Shown here: piece after piece, positions 3,303 to 62,470 of the stretch
How positions within the stretch are numbered: position 1 is the first letter of the stretch
Layout of the letters: each line of letters starts with the position of its first letter
Virus record (IMG/VR): IMGVR_UViG_3300022407_006288
Span: 1 to 64,000 of that record
Origin: a virus
Strand: one strand, 5' to 3'
DNA: 64,000 bases
Notes under the pieces: model-generated
Databases searched by the model: none
What the model was told of the DNA's origin: nothing
The model's input: only the letters and a program-made list of their open reading frames with translations
Position numbers and translations under genes: made by a program

Positions 3303-5090
3303 ATGAACAAAATACAAAGTAAAAAATTTGATGTTGTGATTGTGGGCGCGGGAGGAGCAGGTATGAGGGCCAGTCTGCAATTGGCACGTGTTGGACTGAG
3401 GGTGGCGGTGATTTCCAAAGTGTTTCCAACACGTAGCCATACAGTAGCAGCACAGGGTGGTATTGGCGCGGCACTGGGCAACATGAAAGAAGACAACTGG
3501 CACTATCACTTTTATGATACTGTAAAAGGATCTGACTGGTTAGGCGACCAGGACGCTATTGAATTCATGTGTCGTGAAGCACCCAAGGCAGTATATGACT
3601 TAGATCACATGGGCATGCCTTTTGATAGAAATGAAGACGGCACTATCTATCAGCGTCCTTTTGGTGGGCACACTGCCAACTACGGCAAAGAACCTGTAGA
3701 AAGAGCCTGCGCTGCCGCTGACCGTACTGGTCATGCCATGCTGCATACTTTATATCAAGCCAATCGTGCTGCCGGTACTACATTTTTTGTAGAATGGCTG
3801 GCATTGGATCTAATACGAGATGGTGAAGGTGATGTGTTGGGTGTGACAGCAATGGATATTGAAACAGGTGCTACACAAATTTTTGAAGCCAAGTCCACAT
3901 TGTTGGCTACAGGTGGTGCTGGCCGTATTTATGCTGCATCAACTAATGCTTTTATCAATACCGGCGACGGATTGGGAATGGCTGCTAGGGCCGGTATTCC
4001 TCTCGAAGACATGGAGTTTTGGCAATTCCATCCTACCGGAGTTGCCGGTGCTGGGGTGCTGTTAACGGAAGGTTGCAGAGGAGAAGGTGCTATCTTGGTC
4101 AACGCTCTGGGAGAACGATTCATGGAACGCTATGCACCCGTGTTAAAAGATCTAGCACCTAGAGACTTTATTAGCCGTTGCATGGATCAAGAAATTAAAG
4201 AAGGTCGTGGTTGTGGTCCTAACAAAGATTATATCTTGTTAAAACTGGATCATCTGGGCACTGACACTATTATGAAAAGACTGCCTTCGGTTTATGAAAT
4301 TGGCAAAGACTTTGCCAACGTGGATGTTACAAAAGAATCCATTCCGGTAGTACCCACCATACATTATCAAATGGGCGGTATTCCTACTAACATCAATGGT
4401 CAAGTGGTTATACCTAAAGACGGCAATCCTAATCACGTGGTTAATGGTCTGTATGCAATTGGTGAATGTTCTTGTGTATCAGTACACGGGGCAAATCGTT
4501 TAGGTACCAACTCACTGCTGGACTTGTTAGTGTTTGGCAAAGCAGCAGGCGATCATGTTGTAAATTCCAATCTAAAGAACAAACAGCACAAGCAATTGCC
4601 AGCAGATGCCGGTCAACAATCATTGGATCGTATTAATTGCCTGAACACCAATTCCACAGGCGAGTATGCTCAAACTGTGGCTAATGATATTCGTGATACC
4701 ATGCAAAAACATGCCGCAGTGTTTCGCACACAAGCCAGCATGGACGAAGGTGTAAACAAGATTGCTGAATTAAGACTACGAGTAGCCAATATCGGGCTCA
4801 AAGATAAAAGTATGGAATTTAACTCGGCAAGAGTAGAAGCACTAGAGGTAGCAAACTTGATTGAAGCAGCCGAAGCCACCATGGTCTCCGCGGCTGCTCG
4901 TCGTGAATGTCGAGGTGCTCACACTGTGGCAGACTATGAGAATGTGGAAGGTTGTGCCAATGGTCGAAACGATAAAGAGTGGCACAAGCATACATTGTGG
5001 TACAGAGAAGGTAATAGATTAGACTACAAACCAGTGCAGATGACACCACTAACCGTAGAATCTGTGCCACTTAAAGTACGTACATTTTAA
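3303..5090 (+). CDS. sdhA: Succinate dehydrogenase flavoprotein subunit
   Basis: GAGGAG FAD loop, RSHTVAAQGG covalent-FAD His, QFHPTG, TEGCRGEG, APRD, HYQMGG and HGANRLGTNSL all intact. Confidence 0.96.
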   Translation: MNKIQSKKFDVVIVGAGGAGMRASLQLARVGLRVAVISKVFPTRSHTVAAQGGIGAALGNMKEDNWHYHFYDTVKGSDWLGDQDAIEFMCREAPKAVYDLDHMGMPFDRNEDGTIYQRPFGGHTANYGKEPVERACAAADRTGHAMLHTLYQANRAAGTTFFVEWLALDLIRDGEGDVLGVTAMDIETGATQIFEAKSTLLATGGAGRIYAASTNAFINTGDGLGMAARAGIPLEDMEFWQFHPTGVAGAGVLLTEGCRGEGAILVNALGERFMERYAPVLKDLAPRDFISRCMDQEIKEGRGCGPNKDYILLKLDHLGTDTIMKRLPSVYEIGKDFANVDVTKESIPVVPTIHYQMGGIPTNINGQVVIPKDGNPNHVVNGLYAIGECSCVSVHGANRLGTNSLLDLLVFGKAAGDHVVNSNLKNKQHKQLPADAGQQSLDRINCLNTNSTGEYAQTVANDIRDTMQKHAAVFRTQASMDEGVNKIAELRLRVANIGLKDKSMEFNSARVEALEVANLIEAAEATMVSAAARRECRGAHTVADYENVEGCANGRNDKEWHKHTLWYREGNRLDYKPVQMTPLTVESVPLKVRTF

Positions 5091-51549: not shown

Positions 51550-52722
51550 ATGGCAACAAAGCTATTTGAATCAAACTGGGGCGCAACAAAAGAAGCCCTT
51601 TTAGAAGGCCTTTCGGGAACCCGCCGTCAATCCATGGACGTAGTGTTTGAGAACACTCGTAGATACTTGGCTGAATCGGCTACCGCTGGTGCCACACAAG
51701 CTGGTAATATTGCAGTACTTAACAAGGTAATGCTACCGCTTATCCGTCGTGTAATGCCAACCGTTATTGCGAACGAAATCATGGGCGTTCAGCCTATGAC
51801 CGGTCCAGTCGGTCAAATTCATACTCTACGTGTTCGTTATGCTAATACTGCTGCTGGTGTTACAGCTGGTACAGAAGCACTTGGTCCATTCGAAATTGCT
51901 AAGGCATATTCGGGTAACGAAGTTGCTGCTGATCCTGCTGCTGCTTCTACAGCACGCTTAGAAGGCGTACCTGGTAACAAGTTAAGTATCCAGATTTTGA
52001 AAGAAACCGTCGAAGCTAAGACACGTAAATTGTCAGCTCGTTGGACTTTTGAAGCTGCACAAGATGCTAATGCTATCCATGGTATCGACATCGAAGCAGA
52101 AATCATGCAAGCTCTTGCACAAGAAATCACAGTTGAAATCGACCAGGAAATGCTATTCAAGTTGGGTAGCCTAGTCCCTGTTGCTCCAACTACATTCAAC
52201 CAAGCTGCTGTATCTGGTACAGCTACATATGTTGGTGACGAAATGGCTGCTCTAGCAGTTATGATTAACCAACAAGCTAACCTTATTGCTGCACGTACAC
52301 GTCGTGGTGCTGCTAACTGGGCAGTTGTTTCGCCAACAGCGTTAACAATTCTTCAGACTGCAACAACATCATCATTTGCACGTACAACAGAAGGTACATT
52401 CGAAGCACCTACAAACACAAAGTTTGTTGGTACATTGAACAGCACAATGCGTGTTTATGTTAATCAATATGCAGGCGACGGCGAAGCAGTTCTAATAGGC
52501 TACAAAGGCCCAACAGAAACTGACGCAGCAGCTTACTATTGCCCATACATTCCGTTGATGAGCGTTGGTCCAGTTATGGATCCACAAACATTCGAACCAG
52601 TCGTTTCATTCATGACACGTTACGGATATTTGGAACTAACTAACACAGCTAACAGCTTCGGTAACGCAGCTGACTACGTGTCTAAGGTTGGAATAGATTC
52701 GGCCACATTGAAGTTCTTTTAA
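51550..52722 (+). CDS. gp23: Major capsid protein, gp23-like
   Basis: LIRRVMPTVIANEIMGVQPMTGPVGQIHTLR, TRKLSARWTFEAAQD, YCPYIPLM, MTRYG. Confidence 0.97.
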   Translation: MATKLFESNWGATKEALLEGLSGTRRQSMDVVFENTRRYLAESATAGATQAGNIAVLNKVMLPLIRRVMPTVIANEIMGVQPMTGPVGQIHTLRVRYANTAAGVTAGTEALGPFEIAKAYSGNEVAADPAAASTARLEGVPGNKLSIQILKETVEAKTRKLSARWTFEAAQDANAIHGIDIEAEIMQALAQEITVEIDQEMLFKLGSLVPVAPTTFNQAAVSGTATYVGDEMAALAVMINQQANLIAARTRRGAANWAVVSPTALTILQTATTSSFARTTEGTFEAPTNTKFVGTLNSTMRVYVNQYAGDGEAVLIGYKGPTETDAAAYYCPYIPLMSVGPVMDPQTFEPVVSFMTRYGYLELTNTANSFGNAADYVSKVGIDSATLKFF

Positions 52723-52746
52723 TTCTAAAACTAGAATTAGTAAAAC

Positions 52747-52772
52747 AAAAACGCCCTCTGGGGCGTTTTTTT
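52747..52772 (+). terminator. Intrinsic (bidirectional) terminator after capsid gene
   Basis: AAAAACGCCC-TCTG-GGGCGTTTTTTT. Confidence 0.9.
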
Positions 52773-52781
52773 ATTGACTTT

Positions 52782-52789
52782 GATAAATA
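52782..52789 (+). promoter_or_regulatory. Late promoter GATAAATA
   Basis: Upstream of 52815 ORF, GAGG RBS. Confidence 0.7.
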
Positions 52790-52814
52790 ATATATTATTT
52801 GATGAGGTAAAATC

Positions 52815-53552
52815 ATGTCAGAACCAAACATGAAAAAAATTGACCCTAAAGACATATTATCAAACCCTGATACATATATAACAGACCCGGGTACTTTAAC
52901 TGTAAATTTAGAAACATTTGTGGTATCAGTACACAACGGATATACTCCGGGCGGATTACCCATTGGCGGCGGCACTGTAGTAACACCTGGCGGAACCAGT
53001 GGTGCAGTTCAAATGAATTGGCAAGGCTCTTTTACTGATCAGGGTGGAACTCCAGCTGATACATATTCGACATTAAAGTTTAACGGCGATGGAATACCAA
53101 CTCTCAACGGTACTTTAGCATATCAGCAAAGAGTAAATAATTCTCCCTATTTGCAAATTTTAACACCAAGAGTAGAAAGTGAAGATTTTGGGATACTTGC
53201 CGGGCCCGGCATTGTTGTAATAGGTTACGACGATACCTATAATACTCCTCGTAGTGCATATCTTTCTGTACAGAACAAATCTGATGCAACACAACAGTGG
53301 GATTTTGGTATTATGGGTAACGGGGATAATAGTTTTAGTGTAAGAAATAGAACTACAGATACTGTAGCACTATCCATTGATAATACAAGCGGTAACATAT
53401 CTGGTGGTAATTTAGTTACCTGGACTGCTGTGCCCAGTACCAACATATCATCGGGGACTCCGGGACAGGCAGCATATGATTCTAGTGGAAATTTATATAT
53501 ATGCGTGGCTATAGACACATGGTCAAAGATCGCCGGCACAACTAGCTGGTAA
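52815..53552 (+). CDS. Hypothetical virion-type beta-rich protein
   Basis: 245 aa; C-terminal GTPGQAAYDSSG.LYICVA..TW motif typical of fibre/decoration proteins. Confidence 0.6.
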   Translation: MSEPNMKKIDPKDILSNPDTYITDPGTLTVNLETFVVSVHNGYTPGGLPIGGGTVVTPGGTSGAVQMNWQGSFTDQGGTPADTYSTLKFNGDGIPTLNGTLAYQQRVNNSPYLQILTPRVESEDFGILAGPGIVVIGYDDTYNTPRSAYLSVQNKSDATQQWDFGIMGNGDNSFSVRNRTTDTVALSIDNTSGNISGGNLVTWTAVPSTNISSGTPGQAAYDSSGNLYICVAIDTWSKIAGTTSW

Positions 53553-53582
53553 GTTAAACATTTAGTAAAGGAAATTTTTAAA

Positions 53583-54554
53583 ATGAAAAAGATAAATTTT
53601 TTAAAGAGGGCTACATTAATAACATTTGGTGCAGTATGTTTACTTGGTAATGCTATTGGTCAAAGCAGTCAAACACCAATTAATATTACCGCAACTACCG
53701 TACAATCATCTCCAGCACAGTTTGGTGGTACCACTGCTACTGTATTAAATAATACATTTACTTTTGAAACACAAAATACACAAAATTTTCAATTTTGTAA
53801 TAGTTCAGACAACTGCACGTTGCCCACAGCAGCATCCGGTCCAAGTGCATATACTGTTTCTAATACACGATGGGGAACATTCAAACTAAATAATCCTAAT
53901 TTTAGTGCAAATTCTTCTACCTGTGCCCCAAAAATTTCATTTAACAGTAATGATTATTGTTTGTTAGAATTCCACTTTCATGGTCCATCAGAGCACTGGG
54001 TTAATAACTCGGCTACAGATTTAGAAGTACACTTTGTTTATGTTAAGTTGAGTGACTTAACACAACCGCGTGGATTATGTAATGCCGACAGTCTTTTAGT
54101 ATTGGGTCAAAGAATGGTCGGTAACGGCTCCACACCAAATGCATCGTGGACCAGTGTGTTCAACGCAATACCTTCAGTTAATAGCACCGGAACATCAACA
54201 GGCGCCACTGTTAGCTTCAATATTAAAAACATGATGGGCATTGCCAATTTTAATACAGCACCATCCTATAGATATAGCGGCGGATTAACTGCACCAATTG
54301 GTAGCGGTACTTTAGGAACTGGCAGTACCTGTATTGCACCTACCGATCCCAATAACGGTAATCCATGGTGGGGTAATCCACAGCGTCAGCTAACTGTTGG
54401 TCAATATCCTCAGATAGTTTCCTGGGTGCTATTCAAGCAGCCAATAACACTATCTACAGCACAAGTACAACAATTTAAGTCTGCGTTTCCCGATGGAAAT
54501 GCTCGCGCAGTTCAGCCAGCAGGAACCACAATTTATTATGCTAATCCAAACTAA
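53583..54554 (+). CDS. Secreted alpha-carbonic anhydrase-like protein
   Basis: Signal peptide; QTPINI; EFHFHGPSEH...LEVHFV (three Zn His, plus the Glu106/Glu117 equivalents); YSGGLTAP; VSWVLFKQPITLS..QV..F; GNARAVQP. Confidence 0.85.
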   Translation: MKKINFLKRATLITFGAVCLLGNAIGQSSQTPINITATTVQSSPAQFGGTTATVLNNTFTFETQNTQNFQFCNSSDNCTLPTAASGPSAYTVSNTRWGTFKLNNPNFSANSSTCAPKISFNSNDYCLLEFHFHGPSEHWVNNSATDLEVHFVYVKLSDLTQPRGLCNADSLLVLGQRMVGNGSTPNASWTSVFNAIPSVNSTGTSTGATVSFNIKNMMGIANFNTAPSYRYSGGLTAPIGSGTLGTGSTCIAPTDPNNGNPWWGNPQRQLTVGQYPQIVSWVLFKQPITLSTAQVQQFKSAFPDGNARAVQPAGTTIYYANPN

Positions 54555-54568
54555 TAAATTATATTAGC

Positions 54569-54592
54569 AAAAACGCCCCGCGGGGCGTTTTT
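54569..54592 (+). terminator. Intrinsic bidirectional terminator
   Basis: Perfect 24-bp palindrome AAAAACGCCCCGCGGGGCGTTTTT. Confidence 0.9.
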
Positions 54593-54617
54593 CTTTGGCT
54601 ATATTTTTTCATATTAT

Positions 54618-54625
54618 GATAAATA
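54618..54625 (+). promoter_or_regulatory. Late promoter GATAAATA
   Basis: Upstream of 54640 ORF. Confidence 0.65.
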
Positions 54626-54639
54626 TGTAAAACATTGGA

Positions 54640-55953
54640 ATGTATCTTATGACACAAAAAATTATTGTTCAAGATGGTAATGTTGTTTATACAACTCCCG
54701 GCCTACCAGCAGCAGAAAGTATAAATTTTACTATAGAAGGTCAGTTAAATGTCACCGGGGCCATCAGTGTAAACGGTTCTACTGGTACTGCAGGTCAAGT
54801 TTTAACGTCACAAGGCACCAATCTCCCGGCATATTGGGCTGTAGCCAGCGGCGGTGGTGGCGGAACCGTAACACTGCCCAATACACAAGTTGCATTCGGA
54901 TCAACATCAGATACAGTAACATCAAGTGCTAATCTTGTATACAATTCTTCAAGTAACATTCTGAGCGTAGGTACTACAACCAGCGGGCTTATATCAAGCA
55001 CACCCGGGGGTTCAATAACTATTGCATCTGATACAGCTATATCATTAGATGCAAACGGTATCGAAGTAGTTACAATTAATTCTGATGGTTCACTTGATAT
55101 ATATGGGCCGATTAACGTAAGCAGCTCCAGCGGTACTGCAGGACAAGTTTTAACGTCACAAGGTGCCGGGCTTCCAGCAGTATGGGGTGTAGGTGGAGGC
55201 GGGACCACTACCCTAGCAAATACACAGGTTGCATTTGGATCTACTGCAAATACCATAACGTCAAGTAACAATTTCATATATGATAATTCAACTGATACAT
55301 TAATTGTAGGAGATTTTGGCACATTTGATGGGACCATATCTGCCAACGGATTTTTAAGACTTGAATCTACTTCGTCAATATATCTAAACATTGGTGGTAC
55401 TGATGCAGTTACTATAGACTCTGCAAATACAATAGTTATAGGATCATCAAGTAATAGTGGTGTAGTCTCGGCTAGCAATGGCCAGTCTTTATACCTAGAA
55501 AGCGACGGCGGTAATAATGTTATTGTATTGGGTGCTGCAGGGGATTTATCTGTTAACGGAAGTGTAGGAACAGCCGGACAGGTACTAACATCACAAGGTG
55601 TAGATGCATCACCAACATGGGAATCGCCCACTATACCTCAAAATCTACAAGCGGCTGATTATACATTGGTACTTAGCGATAGCGGCAAACATATTTTTCA
55701 CCCCGGCACAGATGGCCCGTCTCGCACATATACAATTCCGTCAAATGCAAGTGTAGCATTTCCTATTGGCACAGTAGTCACATTTGTAAATCAAAACGGA
55801 GCAGGATCAATACTTATTGCAATCACTTCAGATGTTATGAGATTGGCTGGCGTAGGATCTACCGGTACACGCACACTGGATGCTAACGGCGTAGGTACAG
55901 CATTAAAGATTACTGCAACTGAATGGATTATTAGCGGCACAGGGCTAACATAA
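54640..55953 (+). CDS. Fibre/decoration-type virion protein with internal repeats
   Basis: GTAGQVLTSQG x3, LPNTQVAFGS x2, C-terminal DYTLVLSDSGKHI...TEWIISGTGLT domain. Confidence 0.7.
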   Translation: MYLMTQKIIVQDGNVVYTTPGLPAAESINFTIEGQLNVTGAISVNGSTGTAGQVLTSQGTNLPAYWAVASGGGGGTVTLPNTQVAFGSTSDTVTSSANLVYNSSSNILSVGTTTSGLISSTPGGSITIASDTAISLDANGIEVVTINSDGSLDIYGPINVSSSSGTAGQVLTSQGAGLPAVWGVGGGGTTTLANTQVAFGSTANTITSSNNFIYDNSTDTLIVGDFGTFDGTISANGFLRLESTSSIYLNIGGTDAVTIDSANTIVIGSSSNSGVVSASNGQSLYLESDGGNNVIVLGAAGDLSVNGSVGTAGQVLTSQGVDASPTWESPTIPQNLQAADYTLVLSDSGKHIFHPGTDGPSRTYTIPSNASVAFPIGTVVTFVNQNGAGSILIAITSDVMRLAGVGSTGTRTLDANGVGTALKITATEWIISGTGLT

Positions 55954-55956
55954 TTT

Positions 55957-59378: not shown

Positions 59379-61463
59379 ATGTCAGTAACAATAAATGCCA
59401 AAGGCACAAGCACGCCGTATTTCAAGATCGGCAAAGGCGGTACTACTCTTTTTCAAGGGAGTATTGATCCTAGAACATTATATGAGCCGGTTGACGGCGA
59501 TATGTGGATTAATAATGATACGAATTCACTTAGCATCAAAAGTGCCAATAACTGGATTGCTCCCGTATTAGGCGTCACAAATCCTTTAATATTTCCAGCC
59601 AGTTCAGGCGATAGTGGACAAGTTTTGTCCACAGACGGGCAAGGTAATCTAACCTGGATATCATCATCGGGAAGCGGAACAGTAACATCCGCATCAGTAG
59701 TTTCTGCTAATGGCTTTGCTGGTACTGTTGCCAATTCAACAACTACTCCCGCAATTACTATTTCAACATCTGTAACAGGGCTAGTTAAAGGTAATGGTAC
59801 TGCTATATCTGCTGCCTTGGCAGGAACAGATTATTCAACAGGTACTGCATCATTAGATACTGGTATATTAAAAACAACCACCAGTACTGGAAATTTAACC
59901 ATTGCAGTAGCAAGTGATTTCCCCACATTAAACCAAAATACAACCGGTACTGCCAATAACGTTACAGGTATTGTATCAACGGATCATGGTGGCACTGGAC
60001 TAACATCATTTGTTGCTAACAGAATATTTTATGCAGGAGATGCAAATACAGTTTCTCAAAGTGCTGGACTTACATATAATGGTGCAAATACACTAGTCAT
60101 TGGATCATCGGGCAATGCTACAGTCTTTGCTGGCGCCGGAGAAGCATTACGTCTGGGCAGCAACAGTGGTAATAACATTATTGTATTAGGTGCTGCGGGA
60201 GATTTATCCTTTGCCAGTAGTGTAGGCACAGCCGGACAGGTATTGACATCACAGGGTGCAAATACATCACCTACTTGGACAACAATAACAAGTGGAGTAT
60301 CAAGTTTTAGTGGTAACAGCACTGGACTAACACCAAATACTGCAACAACCGGGGCTATTGTACTTGATGGCACACTAAACATATCACACGGTGGAACTGG
60401 TGCTATCACTGCCAACGAAGCATTTAATAATCTTGTACCATCACAAGTTACAAACAACGGAAAATACTTGACAACTGATGGCGCTAACACATCTTGGTCA
60501 ACTGTTACCGCCGGTACACTGACTGGTACAACACTAAATGCAACTGTAGTTAATTCATCACTTACCAGTGTTGGCACTGTCACCGCCGGTACCTGGTCGG
60601 GGCTGTTTGGTGCAGTGAGTGGTGCCAACCTAACCAATATAACAGCAGCCAATTTAAGCGGCACAATTCCAAGTGCTACATTAGGTAATAGTACACTTTA
60701 CATTGGTACAACAGCAGTTACCCTAAATAGAGCAAGTGCCAATCAAGGCCTAACTGGTATTACCAGTGTTGCCATGCCTGGTGCAACAAGTGGTACAATC
60801 ACATTAACACCGGCAGCAACTGCGGGTACTACTGCTATTACAATTCCTGCGACAGCGGGTACATTGGTTACAACGGGTGATACAGGCACGGTTACAAACG
60901 CAATGTTGGCCGGGTCTATTGCCAATGCCAATTTGGCAAACAGTTCTGTAACAGTCAATGGAACAGCAATTTCACTTGGCTCAAGCGGCACAGTAACTGC
61001 CGCAGCAGGTACATTAACTGGTGCTACCCTAGCTTCCGGAGTAACAGCATCTAGCTTGACCAGTATTGGAACATTATCAAGTCTTACTGTAAGTGGTACA
61101 ACATCATTGACCGGCGCAACTACGTTTGTTGGAAGTGCTGCAACTACACCAGCTGCAGTCGCTTTTAGTGCTACAGCAATGACGATTCCATGCGCAAGTT
61201 CAAACGTATTCACAACAACATTTACTGCCAACGTCACTGTTGCACCGGCATTCTCAAACTTAAAAGACGGACAAACTATCAACTGGTTTATTACACAAGA
61301 TGCTACAGGTTCAAGAACAATGACATGGCCATCCAGCTTCAAGTGGCCGGGAGGTTCAGCAGGTGTATTAAGTACCGCAGCCAACTCAGTTGATTTACTA
61401 GTTGCTACATATAGATCGGCAACTGGGTTTTGGTATGCAACACTATCAAAGGGATTTGCATAA
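59379..61463 (+). CDS. Long tail fibre protein
   Basis: T/G/S/A-rich, shares modules with the 8415, 10469 and 54640 ORFs; C-terminal TWPSSFKWPGG...ANSVDLL domain. Confidence 0.82.
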   Translation: MSVTINAKGTSTPYFKIGKGGTTLFQGSIDPRTLYEPVDGDMWINNDTNSLSIKSANNWIAPVLGVTNPLIFPASSGDSGQVLSTDGQGNLTWISSSGSGTVTSASVVSANGFAGTVANSTTTPAITISTSVTGLVKGNGTAISAALAGTDYSTGTASLDTGILKTTTSTGNLTIAVASDFPTLNQNTTGTANNVTGIVSTDHGGTGLTSFVANRIFYAGDANTVSQSAGLTYNGANTLVIGSSGNATVFAGAGEALRLGSNSGNNIIVLGAAGDLSFASSVGTAGQVLTSQGANTSPTWTTITSGVSSFSGNSTGLTPNTATTGAIVLDGTLNISHGGTGAITANEAFNNLVPSQVTNNGKYLTTDGANTSWSTVTAGTLTGTTLNATVVNSSLTSVGTVTAGTWSGLFGAVSGANLTNITAANLSGTIPSATLGNSTLYIGTTAVTLNRASANQGLTGITSVAMPGATSGTITLTPAATAGTTAITIPATAGTLVTTGDTGTVTNAMLAGSIANANLANSSVTVNGTAISLGSSGTVTAAAGTLTGATLASGVTASSLTSIGTLSSLTVSGTTSLTGATTFVGSAATTPAAVAFSATAMTIPCASSNVFTTTFTANVTVAPAFSNLKDGQTINWFITQDATGSRTMTWPSSFKWPGGSAGVLSTAANSVDLLVATYRSATGFWYATLSKGFA

Positions 61464-62470
61464 TGTCTTTTGCTGCAAGAAATGCACCTTTCCCTGCTGT
61501 GGCTCCTACTAGATCCACTGTTACTTATGTGGTCAGCGCAAATGCTGACAGACAGGTCATTACACTAGGCTCAACTGCTCCTACCACCGGTACATATGTA
61601 GCAGGGCTATCTAACGTAACTGTAACAATCAATAGCAGTGTATATGTTTATTCAACAGTACGAACTACTCCGGCACTAACTATTGCAGGGGGTTCTGCTG
61701 GTGACACGATGGTTATCAACAATAATGGTTACATCCTTGGATGCGGCGGCGGTGGCGGCGGCGCCAATGACGGGTCTATATCTAGTGGTAGTAATGGTGG
61801 CAACGGGCTGTCAATAACTGCTACAGTTACAGGAGCCATTACACTTAACAACAATTCGGGCGCGTATATTGCCGGCGGCGGCGGCGGTGGCGGCGGCGCT
61901 TCTGGTTCTACTACATCCCCAACAGTTGGAGGCGGCGGCGGCGGCGGCGGCGCCGGCGGCGGTACTGGCGGTCCAGCTTCTGCTACATTTAGTACAGGCT
62001 TTACTGCTGTTTCGGGCGGCAGCGCCGGCGGATTAGGGGCGGTTGGTGGTACTGGCGGGTTTGCTGGAGATCCTAACGGTAACACTGCTAGAAATATCTA
62101 TGGCGGAGGCGGCGGCGGCAGGCGGCCTACTAACGCAACAGGTGGTGCAACTGCTCCCACTAGATCAACCGGCGGTGTAGGTGGTGGCGCAGGTGGAGGA
62201 GGCTCGTCGGGTCTGTATAATACTACTGCATCTAATATTTTTGCTGGTGGTGGCGGCGGTTTTGGTGCAGCTGGCGCACAAGGTGGTACTACAGGAACAA
62301 CAGCACCCGGTAGCGCCACAGGCGGGTCAAACAACAGCAATGCCACTGCTTCTACAGGAACCTTATCAGCACAAACCAGTGGTGGTACAGGCGGGTATTC
62401 AATTACCAAAGGCGGAAAAACTGTTAGTGTCGGCGGTGCAGGAACAATTTGGGGGAGTCAGTTAGCATGA
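61463..62470 (+). CDS. Glycine-rich receptor-binding adhesin, T-even gp38-like
   Basis: INNNGYILGCGGGGGG...LNNNSGAYIAGGGGGGG and further poly-Gly motifs separated by variable segments; directly after fibre (TAATG overlap). Confidence 0.7.
   Translation: MSFAARNAPFPAVAPTRSTVTYVVSANADRQVITLGSTAPTTGTYVAGLSNVTVTINSSVYVYSTVRTTPALTIAGGSAGDTMVINNNGYILGCGGGGGGANDGSISSGSNGGNGLSITATVTGAITLNNNSGAYIAGGGGGGGGASGSTTSPTVGGGGGGGGAGGGTGGPASATFSTGFTAVSGGSAGGLGAVGGTGGFAGDPNGNTARNIYGGGGGGRRPTNATGGATAPTRSTGGVGGGAGGGGSSGLYNTTASNIFAGGGGGFGAAGAQGGTTGTTAPGSATGGSNNSNATASTGTLSAQTSGGTGGYSITKGGKTVSVGGAGTIWGSQLA

What the first reader, a model, noticed from the sequence alone, without database searches (positions are those of the whole stretch)
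53583..54554. Phage-encoded secreted alpha-carbonic anhydrase in a late operon
Seen: Sec-type signal peptide, then QTPINI, FHFH+SEH+EVH (all three Zn ligands), the gatekeeper Thr in GGLTAP, and a ~30-aa insert before VSWVLF. Established: alpha-CAs are periplasmic CO2/HCO3- interconverters in Proteobacteria, and vaccinia D8 uses a CA fold for cell attachment. Inference: it either modulates periplasmic pH or bicarbonate late in infection (affecting PMF, lysis timing or carboxylation), or it is a repurposed surface-binding protein. An alpha-class CA in a tailed phage is unusual to my knowledge.
Basis: partly seen in the sequence, partly recalled or inferred. Interest (0 to 1): 0.75.

Follow-up and report, generated by a model that had tools for sequence, protein, structure and literature searches.

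The report
Exported alpha-carbonic anhydrase of giant phage
An uncultured giant lake phage carries, on a small inserted late-gene cassette, an exported zinc carbonic anhydrase of the alpha class with an intact catalytic centre but a rebuilt entrance; related phages keep the same enzyme inside their cell-bursting (lysis) gene block, and its purpose is untested.

Summary
ORF 53583-54554 (+, 323 aa) is an alpha-carbonic anhydrase by Pfam (PF00194, E 4.5e-20), by PDB sequence matches and by predicted fold. It has a Sec-type signal peptide, all three Zn histidines, the Thr199/Glu106 pair and the CO2 pocket.

It belongs to a clade of about 60 protein clusters seen only in uncultured giant T4-core phages and under purifying selection (dN/dS 0.05-0.2). 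No member was found in GenBank phages, PHROGs, BFVD or 185,579 bacterial and archaeal genomes. The nearest cellular relatives are His64-less alpha-CAs of Terracidiphilus MAGs and, further off, Roseateles.

The clade lacks the His64 proton shuttle (NNGH becomes TRWG). It has a 38-residue conserved insert at the active-site rim, six cysteines and only 6-8% charged residues, like the phage's fibre proteins.

In this phage, orf245 and CA form a 1.8-kb cassette with its own late-type promoter and terminator. Five complete close relatives lack both genes. In 11 of 17 related loci the CA lies beside holin, endolysin and spanin genes.

Most likely it is an active enzyme exported to the periplasm late in infection. 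Its physiological role is open: envelope pH/CO2 around lysis, bicarbonate supply, or action outside the cell. This scan noted the same family earlier in another genome (e1-5407838).

The parts
52747..52770 (+). Intrinsic terminator hairpin after the major capsid gene, followed by a T-run; left border of the inserted cassette
   Evidence: Sequence. RNA fold -13.7 kcal/mol, z -3.6. It is one of only two copies of AAACGCCCnnnnGGGCGTTT in the window, with 0 expected by chance.
52781..52789 (+). TGATAAATA, a late-promoter-like motif heading the orf245-CA unit
   Evidence: The motif occurs 11 times in the window against 1.8 expected, and 0 of 100 shuffles reach 11. It lies mostly 15-52 nt before the start of the next ORF, including those of a virion structural protein and of fibre-like genes. 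The same GATAAATA follows the capsid-gene terminator in relatives.
52815..53552 (+). orf245, a fibre-like protein without a signal peptide, co-transcribed upstream of the CA
   Evidence: No Pfam hit. The C-terminus hits a PHROG tail protein weakly. Atlas neighbours are phage fibre modules such as Mtd_N and PTL_trimer, which are leads only. Its homologue is adjacent to the CA in 6 loci. The domain is a module of open frames of 648-1307 aa in G209-G211.
53568..53572 (+). Shine-Dalgarno-like AAGGA, 10 nt before the CA start codon
   Evidence: Sequence. The same AAGGA(A) lies before the CA start in most related loci.
53583..54554 (+). Alpha-carbonic anhydrase gene (323 aa precursor, about 297 aa mature)
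53583..53660 (+). Sec (signal peptidase I type) signal peptide, residues 1-26, with predicted cleavage A-I-G|Q27
   Evidence: It has a positive n-region, a hydrophobic core and an A-x-A|Q site. The same design occurs in all 55 full-length family members. Export is inferred from these features; no SignalP tool was available.
53865..53876 (+). T95-R96-W97-G98, which replaces the N-N-G-H segment that carries the His64 proton shuttle in canonical alpha-CAs
   Evidence: Alignment with Rhodoferax alpha-CAs. The profile alignment to PDB places GHTI as an insertion relative to the family. Each mature protein has only 4 His in total.
53973..54032 (+). Zinc site: H131, H133, E137, E148 and H150, corresponding to His94, His96, Glu106, Glu117 and His119. 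E129 stands in place of Gln92.
   Evidence: H131, H133, E137 and H150 are invariant in every alignment made; E148 is invariant within the phage family and nearly so beyond it.
54285..54296 (+). L235-T236-A237-P238, corresponding to Leu198, gatekeeper Thr199, Thr200 changed to Ala, and Pro201
54297..54410 (+). 38-residue family-specific insert at the active-site rim (residues 239-276), with conserved C250 and the motif PWWGNPQxQL
   Evidence: A shorter form with GNPxxQL is present in the bacterial sister group. Model confidence here is only 59-76.
54571..54593 (+). Intrinsic terminator after the CA gene, nearly identical to the one at 52747-52770; right border of the cassette
   Evidence: Sequence. 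RNA fold -17.2 kcal/mol, z -3.0. Repeat shown. Homology with relatives that lack the cassette resumes at 54581.

Best explanation
The gene encodes a catalytically competent zinc alpha-carbonic anhydrase.

Proposed course of events:
1. The gene is transcribed late, from a TGATAAATA-type promoter, together with the fibre-like orf245.
2. The Sec pathway exports the protein into the periplasm of a Gram-negative host, probably a freshwater Comamonadaceae/Burkholderiales bacterium. The leader is cut before Gln27.
3. The six cysteines form disulfides in the periplasm.
4. The enzyme speeds CO2 + H2O <-> HCO3- + H+ at the cell envelope during the last phase of infection.

Shown:
- Family, fold and conservation of every residue needed for Zn binding, CO2 binding and the Thr199/Glu106 gate.
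- Signal-peptide design across the whole family, and purifying selection.
- Cassette structure, accessory status, and position inside lysis cassettes in relatives.

Inferred:
- Actual activity. It is probably slower than His64-bearing enzymes unless buffer takes the proton.
- Export, timing and host.

Most likely role, at about 0.35 of the total: fast CO2/HCO3-/H+ equilibration at the periplasmic face stabilises envelope pH and proton-motive force in a heavily respiring infected cell, and so helps set when the PMF-sensitive holin fires. This would explain why most relatives co-transcribe the enzyme with holin, endolysin and spanins.

Next most likely role, at about 0.2: trapping or supplying bicarbonate for biosynthesis, as the periplasmic alpha-CA Caa does in Cupriavidus necator.
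For: Enzyme identity:
- Pfam PF00194, 72.8 bits; PDB alpha-CAs by sequence and by fold.
- H131, H133, H150, E137, L235, T236, V152, V173, V279, W281 and R308 are invariant in every alignment made, and E148 is invariant within the phage family, down to 43-48% identity there and about 30% with bacterial relatives.
- dN/dS is 0.05-0.20 in 27 pairs.

Export:
- An M-K-K, hydrophobic core, A-x-A|Q leader occurs in all 55 full-length members although its sequence drifts; 51 of them have six Cys, two of these (the query among them) with a seventh in the leader, and two divergent members have 4 and 5.
- Bacterial alpha-CAs are periplasmic, for example Caa (PMC3904209).

Timing and unit:
- The promoter motif is enriched 11 against 1.8 expected and precedes structural genes.
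- Terminators lie on both sides of the unit.

Link to lysis:
- In 11 of 17 IMG/VR loci (8 of 14 after collapsing near-identical pairs) the CA lies within two genes of a holin (PF11351, above cut-off).
- It also lies near an endolysin (phrog_181, E 4e-77), an i-spanin-like protein, an o-spanin-like lipoprotein and DUF4337.
- In those loci the gaps to its neighbours are only 20-40 nt.

Gram-negative Burkholderiales host:
- The phage SdhA is 78-81% identical to Comamonadaceae SdhA.
- Relatives carry spanins and lipoproteins.
Against: - No activity, zinc or localisation data exist.
- His64 is missing, Gln92 is Glu and Thr200 is Ala, so kinetics or even substrate may differ.
- The insert at the active-site rim is modelled with low confidence.
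- The nearly uncharged, fibre-like composition (6-8% D+E+K+R against 18-21% in bacterial relatives) is not expected for a transient periplasmic enzyme.
- In this window the gene lies among capsid and fibre genes, not lysis genes, and no holin or endolysin homologue is in the 130-kb record.
- Five complete close relatives do without any alpha-CA or beta-CA, so the function is dispensable.
- CA-bearing phages encode no bicarbonate-using carboxylase, PurE or SulP transporter.
- The lysis-block position may reflect one ancestral insertion rather than repeated selection.
Confidence: 0.6

Rival explanations
1. The enzyme acts outside the cell. On this reading, export serves mainly to fold a disulfide-bonded enzyme in the periplasm. 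The enzyme is then set free at lysis and works in the water or on the new virions. It might dock on fibres that carry the orf245 module. There it would change CO2/HCO3-/pH chemistry at the particle or at the next host's surface.
For: - Mature family members have 5.5-8% charged and 43-47% S/T/N/Q/G residues. This matches the phage's fibre proteins and is far from bacterial relatives.
- The CA ranks 9th lowest of 135 ORFs in charged residues, and the rest of that tail is fibre-like proteins.
- It is adjacent to fibre-like orf245 in 6 loci, including a distant one at 44% identity with the gene order reversed.
- In this window the pair moved as one cassette into a lineage that lacks both genes.
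- The orf245 module is present in 5 of 5 CA-bearing records and 0 of 5 CA-free complete relatives.
- Six conserved Cys.
- Lead only: earlier scan notes describe LCIB-type CAs on virion adaptor modules in other freshwater phages.
Against: - I know of no precedent for a Sec-exported protein joining a tailed-phage virion after lysis.
- The co-occurrence with orf245 is confounded by phylogeny (at most two independent events), and orf245 is a common fibre module.
- In most relatives the CA is not next to orf245 but next to the holin and endolysin.
- The composition argument is indirect.
Confidence: 0.2
2. The protein is a zinc hydrolase on the CA scaffold whose main substrate is not CO2. Candidates are an ester or another small electrophile in the cell envelope. 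The rebuilt entrance would give it this new specificity, in support of the neighbouring lysis enzymes.
For: - Family-wide changes line the active-site mouth: NNGH becomes TRWG, Gln92 becomes Glu, Thr200 becomes Ala, and there is a 38-residue insert with a WW motif.
- Alpha-CAs have known esterase side activity (my knowledge).
- The gene lies in lysis cassettes.
Against: - The hydrophobic CO2 pocket (V152, V173, L235, V279, W281) and the Thr199/Glu106 gate are fully kept.
- The same entrance changes occur in chromosomal genes of Terracidiphilus and Roseateles, which have no lysis context.
- No candidate substrate is indicated.
Confidence: 0.07
3. The protein is a non-catalytic binding protein on a CA fold, like poxvirus D8/OPG105. 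It would be used for attachment or for blocking superinfection.
For: - By Foldseek the nearest viral structures in BFVD are poxvirus OPG105 and giant-virus CA-fold proteins.
- The surface composition is fibre-like.
Against: - The zinc ligands and all catalytic residues are invariant under strong purifying selection.
- There is no C-terminal membrane anchor.
- Identity to the pox proteins is only 13-16%.
Confidence: 0.03

Closest known systems
Periplasmic bacterial alpha-carbonic anhydrases (Sulfurihydrogenibium azorense SazCA 4x5s, Neisseria gonorrhoeae 1kop, Thermovibrio 4c3t; physiologically Caa of Cupriavidus necator, PMC3904209)
   Same: Same Pfam family and fold. Shared features are a Sec leader, the Zn triad, the Glu106/Thr199 gate, the CO2 pocket and the C-terminal N-x-R-x-x-Q-P motif.
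   Different: - Only about 25-28% identity.
- No His64 shuttle.
- Gln92 is Glu and Thr200 is Ala.
- The N-terminal roughly 25 residues with Cys23 are missing.
- Three inserts: residues 65-95, 155-166 and 239-276.
- Six Cys.
- 6-8% charged residues instead of about 20%.
- It is phage-borne and expressed late.
Uncharacterised His64-less alpha-CA subfamily of bacteria (Terracidiphilus MAG proteins P0083 and P0085; more distantly Roseateles L219 and L222)
   Same: - The leader is followed directly by Q-S-P-I-N-I.
- (R/E)-W-(G/A)-T-L-K stands in place of N-N-G-H-T-I-Q.
- E-F-H-F-H and S-L-T-A-P are shared.
- An insert with C...GNPxxQL lies before P-E-V-V-S-W.
- The phage clade groups with the Terracidiphilus-type proteins in one clade with SH-aLRT 100 and is itself monophyletic at 100.
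   Different: - 28-34% identity.
- The bacterial proteins have ordinary charge content (18-20%) and 4 Cys.
- Their inserts are shorter.
- At least P0085 is chromosomal, on a 2.5-Mb contig.
Poxvirus D8 / OPG105 and giant-virus CA-fold proteins
   Same: A viral protein with the alpha-CA fold. These are the best viral structural matches.
   Different: Those proteins are from eukaryotic viruses. D8 is a non-catalytic, membrane-anchored adhesin (my knowledge). Here the catalytic site is intact and there is no anchor.
Phage morons and the mobile promoter/stem-loop cassettes of T4-type phages (recalled from the literature, not checked here)
   Same: A unit of promoter, genes and terminator is inserted between conserved genes. 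It is bounded by a duplicated regulatory element and is absent from close relatives.
   Different: It carries a late-type promoter, not an early one, and holds two genes, one of which is an exported enzyme.
LCIB/theta-type carbonic anhydrases noted by this scan in other freshwater T4-like phages (AI notes)
   Same: Large freshwater phages carry a late-expressed CA next to capsid, portal or fibre genes.
   Different: That is an unrelated CA class with no signal peptide, joined to virion adaptor modules. No LCIB-type or beta-CA was found in the 11 records searched here, although the LCIB search had no positive control.

Membership tests
Alpha-carbonic anhydrase (Pfam PF00194) | Profile match above the curated threshold | tested here: met
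   72.8 bits against a cut-off of 27, E 4.5e-20. Own-genome search.
Alpha-carbonic anhydrase (Pfam PF00194) | Alpha-CA fold (central twisted beta-sheet) | tested here: met
   AF2 model with pLDDT 75.8. Foldseek against PDB gives E about 1e-13, probability 1.0 and TM 0.60-0.76 on the target for 379 chains.
Alpha-carbonic anhydrase (Pfam PF00194) | Three zinc-ligand histidines (His94, His96, His119) | tested here: met
   H131, H133 and H150 are invariant in all alignments. Metal binding itself was not tested.
Alpha-carbonic anhydrase (Pfam PF00194) | Thr199/Glu106 gatekeeper pair and second-shell Glu117 | tested here: met
   T236 and E137 are invariant in every alignment made; E148 is invariant in the phage family and nearly so beyond it. 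Second-shell Gln92 is Glu129.
Alpha-carbonic anhydrase (Pfam PF00194) | Hydrophobic CO2 pocket (Val121, Val143, Leu198, Val207, Trp209) | tested here: met
   V152, V173, L235, V279 and W281 are invariant.
Alpha-carbonic anhydrase (Pfam PF00194) | His64 proton shuttle. This is typical of fast isozymes and is not required for membership. | tested here: not met
   N-N-G-H is replaced by T-R-W-G. The profile alignment puts GHTI outside the family model. Only 4 His per protein.
Alpha-carbonic anhydrase (Pfam PF00194) | Acetazolamide-sensitive CO2 hydration activity | not testable with these tools
   Needs recombinant protein and a stopped-flow assay.
Bacterial periplasmic alpha-CAs | N-terminal Sec signal peptide | tested here: met
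   An n-region, h-region and A-x-A|Q design occurs in 55 of 55 full-length members. No SignalP tool and no experiment.
Bacterial periplasmic alpha-CAs | Conserved Cys23-Cys203 disulfide | tested here: inconclusive
   The N-terminal segment with Cys23 is absent. C250 may correspond to Cys203. Six other conserved Cys suggest different disulfides.
Non-catalytic CA-fold proteins (poxvirus D8/OPG105, CA-related proteins) | Loss of one or more zinc histidines; for D8, a C-terminal membrane anchor | tested here: not met
   All three His are kept and there is no C-terminal hydrophobic segment.
Moron-type accessory cassette | Own promoter and terminator, inserted between conserved genes, absent from close relatives | tested here: met
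   Promoter motif and flanking terminators. None of the 80 loci with 80-98% identical capsid protein has it in the DNA held downstream of the capsid gene. It is absent from 5 complete genomes, with a positive control. Homology with relatives resumes at the second terminator.
Phage lysis cassette component | Conserved placement and co-transcription with holin, endolysin and spanins | tested here: inconclusive
   Met in 11 of 17 related loci. Not met in this window, where no lysis gene lies in the 130-kb record. A role in lysis is untested.

The most novel reading that the evidence does not exclude
The enzyme is exported only so that it can fold with disulfides, and its selected function lies outside the cell. 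It would be released at lysis and would work free or docked on virion fibres that carry the orf245 module. Together with the LCIB-type enzymes that this scan noted in other lake phages, this would mean that large freshwater phages have repeatedly recruited carbonic anhydrase activity to the particle or its surroundings. It would also be a first case of a tailed-phage component matured in the host periplasm.
Probability: 0.2. Interest if true: 0.8.

Novelty: new variant of a known kind. Interest (0 to 1): 0.58.

Why it matters
Carbonic anhydrases reported from phages so far are beta-class; one 2026 preprint states that the beta class was the only one found in viral OTUs and database phages. I found no paper in the searchable library that describes an alpha-class phage enzyme.

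Here a whole phage-only branch of the alpha class appears. It is under selection, and it is exported into the compartment where holins, endolysins and spanins act. In most relatives it is wired into the same operons as those lysis genes.

If CO2/bicarbonate/proton chemistry at the envelope helps set lysis timing or burst, that would be a new layer of lysis control. It would also be a new route by which abundant lake phages touch inorganic-carbon chemistry.

The enzyme itself is unusual: it has no His64, it is almost uncharged, and it probably has three disulfides. That makes it an interesting natural variant for enzymology and CO2-capture work. The bacterial sister subfamily, seen in Terracidiphilus and Roseateles, is uncharacterised as well.

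Tried and rejected
- Complex prediction of the mature CA with orf245 gave no answer: score 0.00, below the mark, controls not run. It says nothing either way.
- T4's TATAAATA late promoter is not enriched: 3 copies against 9.9 expected. The phage's own motif is TGATAAATA.
- The sigma-70 promoter scan and the generic terminator scan were no better than shuffles.
- Recent capture from the host is rejected. 87 of 201 genomes of the host-like family have a canonical alpha-CA, but it is only 25% identical to the phage enzyme and carries NNGH. No family member was found in 185,579 species genomes, where all 37 hits were canonical enzymes.
- A Bacteroidota host, suggested by the invariant Gln at +1 of the mature protein, is set aside because the SdhA is 78-81% identical to Comamonadaceae SdhA.
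- A co-ordinated inorganic-carbon pathway is not supported. There is no CPSase/biotin-carboxylase-type ATP-grasp domain, no PurE, no SulP transporter and no beta-CA in CA-bearing or CA-free relatives.
- The LCIB search found nothing but had no positive control.
- No tRNA genes in the window.
- The careful tree search did not finish in time. The tree cited is the quick IQ-TREE search with SH-aLRT support only.
Full report
**What is there**

The ORF at 53583-54554 (+) encodes 323 residues.
- It matches Pfam PF00194 (eukaryotic-type, that is alpha-class, carbonic anhydrase) at 72.8 bits, with a cut-off of 27.
- It matches solved bacterial alpha-CAs by sequence (4x5s, 3q31, 4c3t). A family profile reaches E 2e-25.
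- An AlphaFold2 model built on 24 relatives (pLDDT 75.8, pTM 0.79) is matched by hundreds of alpha-CA chains at Foldseek probability 1.0.

Mapped to human CA II numbering through the alignments:
- H131, H133 and H150 are the zinc ligands His94, His96 and His119.
- E137 is Glu106, E148 is Glu117, and L235-T236 are Leu198-Thr199.
- V152, V173, V279 and W281 are the CO2 pocket.
- N306-x-R308-x-x-Q311-P312 is the C-terminal motif.

The zinc, gate and pocket residues are invariant in the alignments made here, except that E148 varies in canonical bacterial enzymes.

**What differs from textbook alpha-CAs**

- The segment N-N-G-H-T-I-Q, which carries the His64 proton shuttle, is replaced by an invariant T-R-W-G-T-(F/Y)-K. 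The profile alignment independently places the GHTI of the solved enzymes as an insertion relative to the family.
- Most members have only four histidines, three of them zinc ligands. There is therefore no alternative histidine shuttle.
- Gln92 is Glu129 and Thr200 is Ala237.
- The first roughly 25 residues of the canonical domain, with Cys23, are absent. The mature protein starts four residues before Q-T-P-I-N-I.
- There are three inserts: 65-95 (two Cys, poorly modelled), 155-166, and 239-276 at the active-site rim with C250 and the conserved PWWGNPQxQL.
- Nearly all mature proteins have six conserved cysteines; two divergent members have fewer.

**Export**

The N-terminus is M-K-K, then a hydrophobic core, then A-I-G|Q27. 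All 55 full-length family members have this design with an A-x-A|Q site, although the sequence itself drifts. That is the behaviour of a real signal peptide. There is no twin-arginine motif and no lipobox. Export is still an inference, because no prediction tool or experiment was available.

**A phage-only clade under selection**

- The large protein search found 61 clusters at 43-75% identity, all from metagenomes, followed by a drop to 28%.
- IMG/VR holds 17 loci, several on contigs of 335-347 kb.
- tblastn against 50,697 GenBank phage records found nothing. PHROGs has no family for it. In BFVD the only CA folds are poxvirus and giant-virus proteins.
- A pattern scan of one genome from each of 185,579 prokaryotic species returned only canonical NNGH-type enzymes at 22-30% identity over long matches.
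- Pairwise dN/dS among phage copies is 0.05-0.20.

An exhaustive profile search showed a wider subfamily at about 30% identity that shares the leader-Q-S-P-I-N-I start, the (R/E)-W-(G/A)-T-L-K replacement, E-F-H-F-H, S-L-T-A-P and a shorter GNPxxQL insert. Two of these proteins are annotated from Terracidiphilus MAGs, one on a 2.5-Mb contig. Roseateles chromosomes carry more distant versions. In a quick maximum-likelihood tree the phage proteins are monophyletic (SH-aLRT 100) inside a clade with the Terracidiphilus-type proteins (100). Canonical enzymes, including those of Rhodoferax, lie elsewhere. The careful search did not finish.

**Host**

The phage has a T4-type core: gp21-like protease, gp23-like capsid protein and gp15-like protein. 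The record is 130,872 bases and is estimated to be 33% complete.

Its SdhA gene is 78-81% identical to that of freshwater Comamonadaceae and other Burkholderiales. In that bacterial family 87 of 201 genomes have a canonical alpha-CA. It is only 25% identical to the phage enzyme, so the phage gene is not a recent host capture.

**The local unit**

- The capsid gene ends at 52722 and is followed by a terminator hairpin (52747-52770).
- TGATAAATA follows at 52781, then orf245 (52815-53552).
- A 30-nt spacer with AAGGA precedes the CA gene.
- A second, nearly identical terminator lies at 54571-54593.
- TGATAAATA occurs again at 54617, followed by a fibre-like gene with three G-T-A-G-Q-V-L-T-S-Q-G repeats.

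The two hairpins are the only copies of their sequence in the window. TGATAAATA occurs 11 times against 1.8 expected and lies mostly 15-52 nt before gene starts, including structural genes. T4's own TATAAATA is not enriched.

In relatives, the capsid gene is likewise followed by a hairpin, GATAAATA and a variable late gene, often the homologue of the repeat fibre gene.

None of the 80 IMG/VR loci whose capsid protein is 80-98% identical has orf245 or the CA in the DNA held downstream of the capsid gene, which is up to 3 kb. Five complete genomes of this group (347-385 kb, four of them with terminal repeats) have neither gene anywhere. The same search finds the CA in all five positive controls. 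Homology with these relatives resumes inside the second terminator.

The pair is therefore a 1.8-kb accessory insertion of moron type, probably moved by recombination at the terminator/promoter module.

**The context in other phages**

The CA-bearing genomes of 335-347 kb have capsid proteins only 70-71% identical to this one. In 11 of 17 loci (8 of 14 after collapsing near-identical pairs) the CA lies within two genes of a holin (PF11351, above threshold) and close to:
- an endolysin (phrog_181, E 4e-77);
- an i-spanin-like membrane/coiled-coil protein;
- an o-spanin-like lipoprotein with a classical lipobox;
- a DUF4337 membrane protein.

All are on one strand, and a DnaJ-ClpB pair follows.

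Several arrangements occur: holin-CA, CA-holin, endolysin-CA-DUF4337-holin, and holin-orf245-CA. Gaps are 20-40 nt with no promoter motif. In those phages the enzyme is therefore made together with the lysis proteins.

In three loci, including this window, the CA lies by the capsid gene. In four it lies elsewhere. No lysis-gene homologue lies in the 130-kb record of this phage, which covers only a third of the genome.

**An unexplained property**

Mature family members contain 5.5-8% charged residues and 43-47% Ser/Thr/Asn/Gln/Gly. The bacterial sister group, Roseateles and a canonical enzyme have 18-21% charged residues.

Among 135 ORFs of the record (median 22.7%) the CA is 9th lowest, and its companions in that tail are fibre-like proteins. 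This looks like adaptation to the same conditions as the exposed virion fibres.

orf245 has fibre-like neighbours in the protein atlas. Its domain is a module of open frames of 648-1307 aa in CA-bearing genomes. It is present in 5 of 5 CA-bearing and 0 of 5 CA-free records, but that contrast amounts to at most two independent events.

**Interpretation**

The safest reading is an active, Sec-exported periplasmic alpha-CA made late in infection (confidence about 0.6). Without His64 it should depend on buffer for proton removal and may be slower.

For the role I favour fast CO2/HCO3-/H+ equilibration at the envelope of a heavily respiring infected cell. This would stabilise periplasmic pH and proton-motive force and thereby influence when the holin fires. 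That is an inference from the operon context and from the known PMF sensitivity of holins (my knowledge).

Bicarbonate supply, as shown for the periplasmic Caa of Cupriavidus necator (PMC3904209), is the next option. It gains no support from the phage gene content, which has no carboxylases, PurE, SulP or beta-CA.

The composition and the orf245 link keep open an extracellular or virion-associated function (about 0.2). A changed substrate (about 0.07) and a non-catalytic binder (about 0.03) are less likely.

**Literature and earlier notes**

A 2026 preprint on freshwater sponge viromes reports nine viral CAs and states that the beta class was exclusive among viral OTUs and database phages. Another preprint mentions a CA in a temperate Nitrosospira phage without giving its class. 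Four further full-text searches found no description of an alpha-class phage enzyme.

This scan had already noted the same family in another giant lake phage (e1-5407838), and LCIB-type enzymes in many other freshwater phages. These are unchecked AI notes and are used only as leads.

**Limits**

- No expression, localisation or activity data exist.
- The complex prediction gave no answer.
- The insert regions of the model are of low confidence.
- Host assignment rests on one host-like gene.

Noticed in passing
window 52781, 54617, 59228(-), 43435, 63099 and others; record G000: TGATAAATA is enriched (11 in the window against 1.8 expected; 22 in the 130-kb record). It lies mostly 15-52 nt upstream of gene starts, including structural genes. 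It looks like this phage group's late promoter, whereas T4's TATAAATA is under-represented (3 against 9.9 expected).
   Followed up: partly
window 52723-55956; loci L139-L218: The slot between the capsid gene and the NUDIX/gp15-like genes is hypervariable among 80 close relatives. The usual first gene is a homologue of the repeat fibre gene (start M-x-Q-K-I-x-V-Q-D-G). Each occupant has its own hairpin and GATAAATA module.
   Followed up: partly
window 54640-55953 (+): A 437-aa protein with 7.8% charged residues carries three copies of G-T-A-G-Q-V-L-T-S-Q-G at regular spacing and has no Pfam or PHROG hit. It is probably a fibre or decoration protein.
   Followed up: no
L009/L010 3481-8738; L011/L012 3943-12104; L017 1348-10424: Related 335-347 kb phages have a lysis block followed directly by a DnaJ-ClpB chaperone pair. 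The block contains a GH19-type endolysin, an i-spanin-like protein, an o-spanin lipoprotein, extra lipoproteins and secreted Cys-rich proteins, DUF4337 and a GTA-type 3TM holin.
   Followed up: partly
L220, L223, L229 (Nitrosospira) and L224 (Crocosphaera), match at about 3800-4700: These alpha-CA-like proteins lack His64 (I-N-N-G-S-P). They end in a PEP-CTERM-like sorting signal (V-P-E-P-x-T-Y-A-M-L-L-A-G-L...R-R-R), which suggests cell-surface-anchored carbonic anhydrases.
   Followed up: no
proteins P0083 and P0085 (Terracidiphilus MAGs); L219 and L222 (Roseateles): An apparently uncharacterised bacterial alpha-CA subfamily has no His64 ((R/E)-W-(G/A)-T-L-K instead), has E-F-H-F-H and S-L-T-A-P, and has a GNPxxQL insert. 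It is the nearest cellular kin of the phage clade.
   Followed up: partly
record G000: 59379-62470, 64617-68354, 86031-88199, 126994-129760: A set of fibre-like ORFs has only 4-10% charged residues and 40-60% S/T/N/Q/G, against a genome median of 22.7% charged. This is a distinct compositional class that also contains the CA.
   Followed up: partly
all CA family members, first residue after the predicted cleavage site: Gln at position +1 of the mature protein occurs in every full-length member. It would cyclise to pyroglutamate. This pattern is known as a rule for Bacteroidota secreted proteins (my knowledge), yet the host signal here points to Burkholderiales.
   Followed up: no
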